From contig CAZBZO010000001.1 in NCBI GenBank assembly GCA_964496425.1, positions 140,368 through 204,367 of the forward strand: a stretch of DNA of 64,000 bases. The letters are read 5' to 3'. This document shows, in pieces, positions 16,667-16,751 of the stretch; the stretch's first letter is position 1, and each line of letters starts with the position of its first letter. Origin of the DNA: an uncultured Candidatus Saccharibacteria bacterium. GTDB lineage: Bacteria; Patescibacteriota; Minisyncoccia; Phycocordibacterales; UBA9973. Position numbers and translations under genes: made by a program. The notes beneath the pieces were generated by a model. That model saw nothing but the letters and a program-made list of their open reading frames with translations, was not told the DNA's origin and did no database searches.

Positions 16667-16751
16667 ATATATTTTTGGGGTATTTGGAGCGCGACGGCGC
16701 GACAATGAAGGGAATTTTCTACCAAGAAAATGACCGACCCCAAAAGTATAT
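16667..16751. repeat. Structured palindromic intergenic element, copy 1 (GGGGTATTTGGAGC-hairpin-GAAGGGAATTTT-loop-AAAATGACCGACCCC core)
   Basis: About 75-nt core nearly identical to 50470-50545. Closing stem ttttgggg/ccccaaaa. Internal hairpin gcGc-GACG-gCgc versus gcCc-GACG-gGgc in copy 2, a compensatory change. Confidence 0.45.

What the first reader, a model, noticed from the sequence alone, without database searches (positions are those of the whole stretch)
16667..16751. Conserved structured palindromic intergenic element with a compensatory base change (copy 1, 5' of dedA)
A roughly 75-nt core (ttttGGGGTATTTGGAGCgcgacggcgcGACAAtGAAGGGAATTTT-loop-AAAATGACCGACCCCaaaa) recurs at 50470-50545 with about 90% identity. 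The two copies differ by a paired substitution in the small hairpin (gcGc-GACG-gCgc versus gcCc-GACG-gGgc). The loop of the second hairpin is entirely different (ctaccaag versus gaagcttc) while its stem (aatttt/aaaat) is retained. Both copies have long closing stems. Both lie between two minus-strand genes, in the 5' leader of the downstream gene (dedA here, polA at the other site). This is the signature of a selected RNA or DNA structure: a cis-regulatory RNA, a small ncRNA or a miniature palindromic element. I do not recognise it as a known riboswitch class.
Basis: seen in the sequence. Interest (0 to 1): 0.55.

Follow-up and report, generated by a model that had tools for sequence, protein, structure and literature searches.

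The report
Dispersed three-stem intergenic repeat element
A ~90-base repeat that folds into a three-armed hairpin sits just behind genes in this small Patescibacteria (CPR) genome and its relatives. Its shape rather than its sequence is conserved, and on the strand opposite the neighbouring genes, so it looks like a new REP/MITE-like element and not a switch for dedA or polA.

Summary
Window 16664-16754 and 50461-50551 are two copies of a three-way-junction element: a closing stem P1 and two hairpins, H1 and H2. A covariance model found a third, divergent copy at 41034-41123. It also found three copies on a second contig from the same samples and single copies in five related Nomurabacteria/Paceibacteria-like genomes.

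The structure is strongly supported. On nine P1-type copies, 98% of cells pair and 33 of 34 pairs change on both sides. The outer P1 arms differ at every locus.

It is not a dedA or polA leader. Neighbouring genes are unrelated, and relatives have short or no spacers at the same sites (tRNA_bind and dedA overlap there), so the copies are insertions. Copies sit 8-12 nt behind the upstream stop codon, where these genomes usually carry a terminator hairpin. All nine P1-type copies point against the flanking genes.

Wobble pairs are 12 G·U to 0 A·C on the strand complementary to the mRNAs. Ordinary terminator hairpins in the same genomes show the reverse (14:1 on the mRNA strand).

Rfam has no match, and no promoter, U-tract, target duplication or transposase was found.

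Best reading: a new REP/MITE-like structured repeat acting in single-stranded form on the antisense strand. Whether that is RNA or DNA, and what it does, is unresolved.

The parts
16664..16754 (+). Copy w1, the finding. P1 arms 16664-16681 / 16737-16754. H1 16684-16705: UUG / tandem GA / GCGC-GACG-GCGC / GA / CAA. H2 16710-16735: GG / GA / AUUUUCU-ACCA-AGAAAAU / GA / CC.
   Evidence: 108 bits with R1; 62 bits with R2; core model R3
50461..50551 (+). Copy w2. P1 arms 50461-50478 / 50534-50551, H1 50481-50502, H2 50507-50532. It lies 12 nt behind the tsaE stop and 74 nt before the polA start.
   Evidence: Same-strain contigs L031 and L033 break inside it at position 50525.
41034..41123 (+). Copy w3, a divergent member with the same architecture and nearly all stems changed compensatorily. 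It lies 10 nt behind the rpsT (S20) stop.
   Evidence: (58.6 bits, E 8e-15)
40252..40346 (+). Possible fourth, degenerate copy. It has a 15-bp closing stem around a 65-nt interior containing UGAAGGGA. It is framed by inverted copies of the 'D8' repeat (40214-40248 and about 40366-40400).
   Evidence: (only 11 bits). Membership is uncertain.
50411..50444 (+). Solo copy of the D8 repeat (AATTACGAGTTACGAGTTG type), 16 nt 5' of w2. Elsewhere D8 is the terminal inverted repeat of the 40214-40400 element.
   Evidence: (family D8)
16765..17118 (-). Upstream gene of w1 (tRNA_bind domain protein). Its stop codon is 10 nt from P1.
16027..16644 (-). Downstream gene of w1 (DedA/VTT family). Its start is 19 nt from P1. 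In relative L056 this gene overlaps tRNA_bind by 1 nt, so the 120-nt spacer here is an insertion.
50564..51000 (-). Upstream gene of w2 (tsaE; 145 aa as called on the identical contig L030). Its stop is 12 nt from P1.
47975..50386 (-). Downstream gene of w2 (polA). Its own -10 box (TATACT) sits 6 nt before the ATG, as in relatives. Its stop is followed by a plain terminator hairpin (47941-47970), at the position where relative L034 carries an element.
41134..41388 (-). Upstream gene of w3 (rpsT, ribosomal protein S20).

Best explanation
What it is (shown): one copy of a lineage-specific family of miniature, non-coding, structure-conserved repeats in a Nomurabacteria/Paceibacteria-like CPR bacterium.

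The conserved unit is a two-hairpin module.
- H1: a 3-bp base, a G(N)A / GA internal loop, a 4-bp G+C stem and an RRCG loop.
- H2: a 2-bp base, either a tandem GA or a bulged A, a 6-7 bp A/U stem and an ANYN loop.

In nine of twelve copies the module is clamped by a 16-22 bp closing stem (P1) whose sequence differs at every locus.

Copies are insertions into otherwise very short intergenic spacers. They sit in the slot 8-12 nt behind a stop codon, where these genomes normally carry a terminator hairpin. Their polarity is fixed: the strand that folds best, and that shows G·U wobble pairs but no A·C mismatches, is complementary to the neighbouring mRNAs. So this is a REP/MITE-like dispersed element, not a leader or riboswitch of dedA or polA.

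How it works (inferred): it is used, and kept intact, as a single strand of the antisense polarity. I put about 55% on RNA. In that reading, a transcript running against the upstream gene folds into the junction. Such a transcript could come from divergent firing of the -10-dominated promoter of the next gene, or from read-through past the tRNA-Lys terminator in the variants of L056 and L060. The fold would then act as an orientation-specific barrier, processing site or protein-binding site that shields the 3' end of the upstream gene. I put about 45% on single-stranded DNA recognised by an unidentified structure-specific enzyme.

Spread between loci is most likely by a transposon-like route that copies the module. 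The locus-specific P1 arms could be made on site, for example by snap-back copying of the flank. That step is pure inference.
For: Family and structure:
- R1, R2 and R3 searches give 3 copies in the window, 3 on L025, 1 each in L034, L037 and L039, and P1-less variants in L054, L056 and L060.
- Each copy folded on its own gives the same junction.
- On the 9-sequence alignment A6, 98.3% of cells pair, 33 of 34 pairs change on both sides, and 0 of 500 shuffles reach that. Slid controls pair at 43-49%.
- On the core-only alignment A7 (11 sequences), 100% of cells pair and 16 of 16 pairs change on both sides.

Insertion and proliferation:
- The w1, w2 and La cores are nearly identical while sitting at unrelated loci.
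- Same-strain contigs break inside w2.
- Spacers compared with relatives: tsaE-polA is 177 nt here versus 41, 15 or 0 nt. tRNA_bind-dedA is 120 nt here versus a 1-nt overlap. polA-PEMT is 206 nt with an element in L034 versus 35-39 nt elsewhere.

Position and polarity:
- P1 starts 8-12 nt after the stop codon in 7 of 8 independent loci.
- All 9 P1-type copies are antisense to both flanking genes.

Strand of selection:
- 12 G·U versus 0 A·C pairs on the element strand.
- The element strand is the more stable one in 9 of 9 copies with DNA parameters, and in all 6 copies tested with RNA parameters.
- Control: 25 plain hairpins within 40 nt after stop codons in the same genomes show 14 G·U versus 1 A·C on the mRNA strand. 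Fisher's exact test on the two tables gives about 7.5e-7 (my arithmetic).

Link to a same-strand transcript: in L056 and L060 the module lies directly 3' of tRNA-Lys plus a terminator-like hairpin, on the tRNA's strand. The unit is inverted between the two genomes relative to its flanks.

No known family: Rfam gives nothing better than microRNA noise.
Against: - There is no direct evidence that the antisense strand is transcribed. No sigma-70-like promoter stands out from background upstream on either strand, and no U-tract follows the element.
- In L037 and L039 the element sits between two divergent promoters (ruvB and an unknown ncRNA), so it may not be transcribed at all.
- No target-site duplication, no conserved target motif and no transposase, reverse transcriptase or HUH gene was seen. 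Only 37 of about 62 window ORFs were scanned with Pfam.
- Locus-specific, perfectly paired P1 arms are not what an ordinary MITE leaves behind.
- L037 and L039 carry the element at the same site with many compensated differences, at about 81% PolA identity. That looks like long-term functional maintenance rather than selfish turnover.
- Two P1-less variants (L054, L060) are in the sense orientation relative to the flanking protein genes.
- The sample is small: 12 copies from about 6 genomes. Alignments A6 and A7 were registered by hand to the structure, which biases pair counts towards it.
- L025 may be the same genome as the window or a close relative. This is not settled.
Confidence: 0.5

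Rival explanations
1. A purely DNA-level element. The folded antisense strand would be the single-stranded DNA substrate of a structure-specific HUH/Y1 transposase or tyrosine recombinase, as with REP-RAYT, IS200/IS605 ends or integron attC bottom strands. It would have no RNA role.
For: - It is multi-copy with presence/absence polymorphism and fixed polarity.
- It is placed in extragenic DNA behind genes, like REPs (PMC3733652).
- There is no promoter.
- The L037 and L039 copy lies between divergent promoters.
- Asymmetric features such as the bulged A and the G(N)A/GA loop resemble the extrahelical bases that give attC and IS608 hairpins their strand specificity (my knowledge).
- The strand preference also holds with DNA folding parameters.
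Against: - A wobble-only pattern (12 G·T, 0 A·C) matches what RNA terminators show in the same genomes. It is less expected for DNA, where G·T is also destabilising.
- By GC skew and gene orientation, the folded strand is the leading-strand template, the strand least exposed as single-stranded DNA. That is the opposite of the IS608 rule (my knowledge).
- No partner enzyme, GTAG/CGTC tag, R-box or target motif was found.
Confidence: 0.25
2. A sense-strand 3'-UTR or intercistronic RNA element of the upstream gene: an elaborate terminator, an mRNA stabiliser, or a REP-like structure close to the stop codon that modulates translation termination.
For: - It sits 8-12 nt after stop codons, in the slot where plain terminators lie.
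- L034 has an element exactly where the window has a plain terminator, after polA.
- The reverse-complement RNA also folds stably, at -30 to -49 kcal/mol.
- In E. coli, REPs within about 15 nt of a stop codon affect translation (my knowledge, Liang et al. 2015; not checked here).
Against: - All 12 wobble positions become A·C mismatches in the sense RNA, while true terminators in the same genomes show the opposite bias.
- There is no U-tract.
- w1 lies between genes that overlap in a relative, so termination there would cut off dedA.
- The L037 and L039 copy is not behind any gene.
Confidence: 0.12
3. An independent small non-coding RNA gene family transcribed from its own promoter on the + strand.
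For: Covariation, G·U pairs and conserved internal-loop motifs typical of protein-binding RNAs.
Against: - No promoter or terminator consensus is present at a consistent distance. These genomes do have clear TTGACN-17-TATAMT promoters elsewhere.
- w1 starts 19 nt from the dedA start codon.
- The closing stems are hypervariable.
- Copies are absent from orthologous sites in relatives.
Confidence: 0.06
4. A gene-specific cis-regulatory leader or riboswitch controlling dedA and polA.
For: It lies upstream of both genes and has a conserved structured core.
Against: - It is on the wrong strand.
- Other copies precede or follow unrelated genes.
- Relatives express dedA and polA without it.
- polA keeps its own promoter downstream of the element.
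Confidence: 0.02

Closest known systems
REP / REPIN elements (GTAG- and CGTC-tagged palindromic repeats; RAYT-mobilised)
   Same: Short, non-coding, multi-copy extragenic palindromic repeats. They lie mostly downstream of genes between co-directional or convergent ORFs. They are thought to act in single-stranded form and can persist at orthologous sites (PMC3733652).
   Different: REPs are single 20-40 nt hairpins with an unpaired GTAG or CGTC tag at one end and a family-specific stem. Here there is a three-way junction of about 90 nt, no terminal tag (CGTC occurs only as the complement of the H1 loop), locus-specific closing stems, and no RAYT seen.
Bacterial MITEs that fold as long RNA hairpins (Correia/CREE, ERIC/IRU, RUP, BOX)
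   Same: Elements of 90-200 nt, inserted in intergenic DNA, with presence/absence polymorphism. They are foldable and can alter expression of neighbours (my knowledge).
   Different: MITEs have family-wide terminal inverted repeats and direct target-site duplications. Here only the inner part of P1 is shared within a subfamily, the outer 8-10 bp are unique per locus, and no duplication is seen. Orientation is fixed, and structural selection is on the antisense strand.
Integron attC sites
   Same: They lie directly behind an ORF. Structure is conserved while sequence varies. The functional folded strand is the bottom strand, antisense to the ORF. Asymmetric extrahelical bases are present, and long sites have branched tips (my knowledge).
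   Different: There are no RYYYAAC/GTTRRRY boxes, no cassette array and no integrase. The flanking genes are core housekeeping genes in conserved synteny.
Intrinsic (often bidirectional) terminator hairpins of the same genomes
   Same: Same position behind stop codons and similar long perfect stems (11-24 bp). One orthologous site carries a terminator in one genome and an element in another.
   Different: Terminators have an A-tract, stem and U-tract, with G·U pairs on the mRNA strand (14:1). The elements have no U-tract, carry a two-hairpin insert at the tip, and have G·U pairs on the opposite strand (12:0).
Mobile elements that target hairpins (IS1397/ISKpn1 in REP loops, IS110/IS1111 in REPs or attC, group IIC introns behind terminators)
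   Same: These are precedents for strand-specific insertion into or next to intergenic stem-loops (my knowledge). The P1-less variants sit immediately 3' of a terminator-like hairpin.
   Different: Those are kilobase-sized, protein-coding or ribozyme elements. This one is a 55-60 nt module with no coding capacity.

Membership tests
Any Rfam 15 family | Covariance-model score at or near the family threshold | tested here: not met
   The gathering-threshold scan of the window finds only 7 tRNAs. The permissive scan of 16550-16850 gives a best E-value of 1.3, for microRNA or snoRNA models far below threshold.
Riboswitch / cis-regulatory 5' leader | Sense orientation in the 5' UTR of a recurrent gene family, conserved across genomes | tested here: not met
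   The element is antisense to the flanking genes in 9 of 9 P1-type copies. Neighbouring genes are unrelated. It is absent upstream of dedA and polA in relatives.
Intrinsic terminator | Stem-loop followed by a U-tract on the transcribed strand, with the stem maintained in the mRNA | tested here: not met
   There is no U-tract on either strand. Wobble pairs are on the antisense strand, opposite to bona fide terminators in the same genomes.
REP (GTAG/CGTC superfamilies) | Single 20-40 nt imperfect palindrome with an unpaired GTAG or CGTC tag at one end | tested here: not met
   The element is a three-way junction of about 90 nt. No terminal tag appears in any copy. The defining features are taken from PMC3733652.
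REP (GTAG/CGTC superfamilies) | Multi-copy, extragenic, predominantly downstream of ORFs | tested here: met
   Stop-to-P1 distances are 8-12 nt.
REP / REPIN | Cognate RAYT (Y1 transposase) gene in the genome | not testable with these tools
   Only fragments of the genomes are available. None was found among the 37 window ORFs scanned.
MITE | Family-wide terminal inverted repeats plus direct target-site duplication | tested here: not met
   Only the inner 9 bp of P1 (TTTTGGGGT/ACCCCAAAA) are shared, and only by w1 and w2. The outer arms are unique, and no direct repeats flank the element.
MITE | Several near-identical copies at unrelated loci, with filled versus empty orthologous sites | tested here: met
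Integron attC | R''/R' boxes (RYYYAAC...GTTRRRY), tandem cassette array, IntI | tested here: not met
   There are no conserved AAC/GTT triplets at the P1 ends. w2's GCCTAAT/ATTAGGC is the only near match. Copies are tens of kilobases apart, between housekeeping genes.
IS200/IS605-derived PATE | Two similar subterminal hairpins, a conserved 4-5 nt target/cleavage motif, and the folded (top) strand on the lagging-strand template | tested here: inconclusive
   H1 and H2 are dissimilar (G+C-rich versus A/U-rich) and no shared flank motif is present. By GC skew the folded strand is the C-rich strand, i.e. the leading-strand template. However, skew is confounded with gene orientation on these short pieces.

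The most novel reading that the evidence does not exclude
The element could be a new class of orientation-specific RNA device. It would be a protein-binding three-way junction that folds only in transcripts running against the neighbouring gene, and that insulates gene 3' ends (and the region behind the tRNA-Lys terminator) from antisense or read-in transcription in promoter-dense, leaderless CPR genomes. It would spread as a miniature mobile module whose closing stem is synthesised on site by snap-back copying of the flank. Either half would be unprecedented for bacterial repeats: antisense-directed structural selection, or on-site generation of a locus-specific stem.
Probability: 0.25. Interest if true: 0.8.

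Novelty: new variant of a known kind. Interest (0 to 1): 0.6.

Why it matters
CPR/Patescibacteria genomes are small and tightly packed, and almost nothing is known about their non-coding elements. This family combines three features:
- the population behaviour of a REP or MITE (multi-copy, filled and empty sites);
- the evolutionary signature of a functional structured nucleic acid (near-complete compensatory change in five helices);
- structural selection on the strand opposite the genes it follows, the reverse of what ordinary terminators in the same genomes show.

If the antisense strand is read as RNA, the element would point to an unrecognised way of policing antisense transcription. If it is used as DNA, it would point to an undiscovered structure-specific recombinase or transposase in CPR bacteria.

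There is also a practical consequence. The element breaks metagenome assemblies, and it can be mistaken for a riboswitch-like leader.

Tried and rejected
- **Rfam, both modes:** nothing (also 51, 68, 103 for neighbouring features).
- **Degenerate-pattern scan of the 185,579 GTDB species genomes:** 6 hits, all chance matches in coding DNA. The source genome is not in that set.
- **The same pattern on JGI/NCBI metagenome contigs:** 23 hits, of which only L009 and L025 are real.
- **Viral contigs (two patterns) and phage/plasmid BLAST:** nothing real.
- **Exact look-up of the 215-aa TsaE ORF:** failed, because the called gene is 145 aa.
- **MAFFT and CM-made alignments (A3, A4, A5):** these mis-registered the H1 base and P1. 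I replaced them with hand-registered, N-padded alignments checked against the true sequences.
- **Promoter hypothesis:** the best sigma-70 scores upstream of the elements (6-9 of 12) equal the background distribution.
- **GC-skew test of a replication-locked orientation:** uninformative on short, gene-biased pieces.
- **A 9-nt identity between w2's outer arm (GCCTAATGG) and the polA start region of L034:** judged coincidental, because the window's polA keeps its own orthologous promoter and start.
- **Short complementary 5-mers upstream of w1 and w2:** these hinted at the 'hairpin-module-repeat of arm' layout seen in L054 and L056, but they are not found in the other copies.
- **GuaA homologue search, meant to show that L025 and the window share a contig:** did not return the exact protein.
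- **attC and CGTC-REP membership:** considered and rejected (see the membership table).
- **Literature searches:** found no description of such an element in CPR bacteria.

Full report
**1. The observation**

Degenerate patterns built from them match exactly twice in the window, against none in shuffles. The repeat finder reports them as family D6.

Each folds, on its own, into a three-way junction:
- a 17-18 bp closing stem (P1);
- H1: UUG / tandem GA / 4-bp G+C stem / GACG loop / GA / CAA;
- H2: GG / tandem GA / 7-bp A/U stem / 4-nt loop / GA / CC.

On the + strand the energies are -44.3 and -52.6 kcal/mol, with z-scores near -8.5. The reverse complements fold 8-14 kcal/mol less well.

The outer half of P1 is unrelated in sequence between the copies, yet perfectly paired in both.

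**2. Surroundings and organism**

- Copy w1 lies between a tRNA_bind-domain gene and a DedA/VTT gene.
- Copy w2 lies between tsaE and polA.
- All four genes are on the minus strand.
- The PolA protein is 100% identical to proteins on contigs from metagenome assemblies JACCDT01 and JACCDG01 and from Logan runs SRR10036059 and SRR10036063.
- Its nearest relatives are 69-74% identical. Where they are named, they are Candidatus Nomurabacteria, Pacebacteria or Patescibacteria.
- G+C content is 43-44%.

**3. More copies**

Rfam has nothing. A junction-anchored pattern found only chance hits in GTDB genomes. In metagenome contigs it found one real relative, on L009 and L025.

A covariance model built from these three sequences (R1) found the following:
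- a third, much more divergent copy in the window at 41034-41123;
- two further copies on L025;
- single copies in relatives L034, L037 and L039.

A second model, built from nine copies (R2), finds exactly three copies in the window, all on the + strand, and no longer picks up plain hairpins. A core-only model (R3) adds variants without a P1 stem in L054, L056 and L060.

A degenerate, uncertain fourth copy may lie at 40252-40346.

**4. Is the structure selected?**

I registered the nine P1-type copies by hand and checked each row against the true sequence.
- 98.3% of 298 cells form standard pairs.
- 33 of 34 pairs change on both sides.
- None of 500 shuffles reaches this.
- Sliding the partners by 1-3 columns drops pairing to 43-49%.

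For the H1-H2 core of all eleven placed copies, pairing is 100% and all 16 pairs covary.

One caveat: the alignments were fitted to the structure. However, independent single-sequence folds recover the same junction for every P1-type copy.

The positions that stay constant are the unpaired ones:
- the G(N)A / GA internal loop of H1;
- the RRCG loop of H1;
- a bulged A in H2 (or a tandem GA in the w1 subfamily);
- the first A of the H2 loop.

**5. Which strand?**

In the paired columns there are 12 G·U pairs and no A·C pairs on the element (+) strand, plus five other mismatches. On the mRNA-sense strand every one of those 12 would be an A·C mismatch. The element strand is also the more stable one in all six copies folded with RNA parameters and in all nine with DNA parameters.

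As a control, I collected 25 plain hairpins lying within 40 nt after stop codons in the same genomes. These show 14 G·U versus 1 A·C on the mRNA strand, as RNA terminators should.

The two tables differ with a Fisher exact p of about 7.5e-7 (my arithmetic). Known strand-biased mutation (cytosine deamination on the exposed strand) would push in the opposite direction. I therefore read this as selection for folding of the strand complementary to the neighbouring mRNAs.

**6. Placement**

- In seven of eight independent P1-type loci, P1 begins 8-12 nt after the stop codon of the upstream gene.
- The distance to the next start codon varies from 19 to 275 nt.
- All nine P1-type copies are antisense to both flanking genes.
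- The flanking genes have nothing in common.
- The exception in position is the orthologous copy in L037 and L039. It lies about 64 nt upstream of ruvB, and 13 nt upstream of the -35 box of a strong promoter (TTGACT-17-TATACT) for an unknown conserved non-coding RNA on the element's own strand.

**7. The copies are insertions**

| Spacer | This window (or carrier genome) | Relatives |
|---|---|---|
| tsaE-polA | 177 nt | 41, 15 and 0 nt |
| tRNA_bind-dedA | 120 nt | overlap by 1 nt in L056 |
| S20 to next gene | 275 nt | 10-60 nt |
| polA-PEMT | 206 nt in L034, with an element | 35-39 nt without one |

Further points:
- The window itself has a plain terminator hairpin 4 nt after polA.
- The window lacks the ruvB-side copy seen in L037 and L039.
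- Contigs of the same strain end inside w2, as expected for a repeat.
- The w1, w2 and La cores differ by only a few bases, so some spread is recent.
- L037 and L039 (PolA 81% identical) keep the element at one site with many compensated differences, so some copies are old and have been maintained.

**8. What it is not**

- It is not a leader or riboswitch: wrong strand, unrelated genes, and absent in relatives.
- It is not an ordinary terminator: no U-tract, and wobble pairs on the wrong strand.
- It is not an independent sRNA gene by any sign I could test. The best sigma-70 matches upstream equal the background, even though these genomes have very clear promoters elsewhere.
- It is not a tagged REP, a classical MITE or an attC site. 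Each lacks a defining feature (see the membership table; REP features from PMC3733652).

**9. Variants that give hints**

In L056 and L060, the H1-H2 module lies directly 3' of a tRNA-Lys(UUU) gene plus a terminator-like hairpin, on the tRNA's strand. The whole tRNA-module unit is inverted between the two genomes relative to its flanks. In L054 the module follows a 21-bp perfect hairpin.

In L054 and L056, the segment after the module partly repeats the 5' arm of that hairpin. The hairpin's 3' arm could therefore pair either way. This is the layout expected if the 3' arm of P1 is copied from the flank after the module lands next to a hairpin. It is only a suggestion, not a demonstrated mechanism.

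Next to w2 lies a solo copy of another repeat (D8). At 40214-40400, D8 forms the inverted ends of a roughly 190-nt element with a P1-closed, junction-like interior. Composite or nested elements are therefore possible.

**10. Best explanation and its limits**

Shown:
- It is a new family of structured, dispersed, orientation-locked intergenic repeats.
- The copies are insertions in the terminator slot.
- The fold is selected on the antisense strand.

Inferred:
- The element works as a single strand of that polarity.
- I slightly favour RNA. The wobble-only pattern equals that of true RNA hairpins in the same genomes. The tandem G·A and bulged-A motifs look like protein-binding RNA features. Two variants sit in the 3' trailer region of a tRNA gene on the same strand.
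- Transcription would come from divergent firing of the next gene's -10-dominated, near-leaderless promoter. The polA -10 box lies 6-9 nt before the ATG in four genomes.
- The counter-arguments are serious. There is no evidence of antisense transcription, one conserved copy sits between divergent promoters, and no U-tract is present.
- The single-stranded-DNA alternative (a REP-RAYT-like or attC-like substrate) explains the mobility and the lack of a promoter. It fits the wobble pattern and the predicted replication strand less well, and no enzyme was found.
- How the locus-specific P1 arms arise is unexplained by any standard transposition scheme.

**11. Verdict**

- Novelty: a new variant of a known kind (REP/MITE-like structured repeats) with two unusual properties, antisense-directed structural selection and per-locus closing stems.
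- Interest: 0.6.

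Noticed in passing
window about 57490-57790 (-); L037 about 1364-1850 (+); L039 about 2441-2830 (+): A conserved, unannotated non-coding RNA candidate of about 250-300 nt lies between the T2SSE/PilB-like gene and ruvB. It has a strong promoter (TTGACA/TTGACT-17-TATATT/TATACT), long-range pairing (AAAUCUCUAAGCAAUC with GAUUGUUUAGAGAUUU) and a bidirectional terminator. 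Rfam gives no match, even at a permissive threshold. It could be a divergent 6S-like or CPR-specific RNA.
   Followed up: partly
window 44881-44954 (-); L039 14033-14106 (-): ARAGORN calls a 'tRNA-Stop, anticodon tta'. The Rfam alignment shows the anticodon loop as CUUUUAA, which makes it tRNA-Lys(UUU) with a G·A at the top of the anticodon stem. ARAGORN itself calls the orthologues in L056 and L060 Lys(ttt). It is therefore very likely not a suppressor tRNA.
   Followed up: partly
window 7773-7894, 13220-13340, 44739-44870, and 45036-45069: A second repeat family (repeat finder D10, D12, D14, D17) follows three minus-strand tRNA genes (His, Arg-tct, Lys). Behind tRNA-Lys, a structured segment of about 130 nt ends in a second copy of the tRNA's T-arm, acceptor 3' end and CCA. 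A copy of the tRNA 5' end lies upstream. It looks like a miniature element that inserts into, and regenerates, tRNA 3' ends.
   Followed up: no
window 40214-40400; solo copies at 42435-42468 and 50411-50444: The repeat 'D8' (...TTAATTACGARTTACGAGTTG) forms roughly 35-nt inverted ends of a palindromic element of about 190 nt, lying between a PIF1-like helicase gene and a thioredoxin-like gene. Solo copies lie inside or near fpg and just upstream of the polA promoter. This is another MITE-like family, possibly a carrier of the three-way-junction module.
   Followed up: partly
window 50387-50410; L034 about 9985-10000; L038 about 9985-10000; L039 about 9985-10000: polA has a -10 box (TATACT/TATAAT) only 6-9 nt before its ATG in four genomes, which implies leaderless or near-leaderless mRNAs. 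dedA in the window has TATAAA 5 nt before its ATG.
   Followed up: no
window 542-570, 3119-3163, 13347-13399, 29085-29132, 35823-35852, 46459-46500, 47941-47970, 51012-51045, 57430-57484, 60283-60318: Unusually long (11-24 bp), perfectly paired hairpins lie 4-30 nt behind stop codons. Many include the A- and T-tracts within the stem, as bidirectional terminators do. Their wobble pairs are on the mRNA strand (14:1 across six related genomes).
   Followed up: yes
window 29188-30029: Five tandem units of about 144 nt lie inside a 603-aa gene. They correspond to Kelch-type beta-propeller repeats.
   Followed up: partly
window 17171-18919 and 18947-20689: Two adjacent paralogous genes of about 580 aa with no Pfam family (only a weak zinc-finger hit) share 72% DNA identity at their 5' ends. 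The pair is conserved next to tRNA_bind in relative L056.
   Followed up: no
L054 2193-2239 and 2332-2353: A 21-bp perfect hairpin lies directly 5' of the P1-less module. An extra H2-like hairpin (UUUUUCG-AGCA-CGAAAAA) lies 3' of it. This suggests partial duplication or rearrangement of the element.
   Followed up: partly
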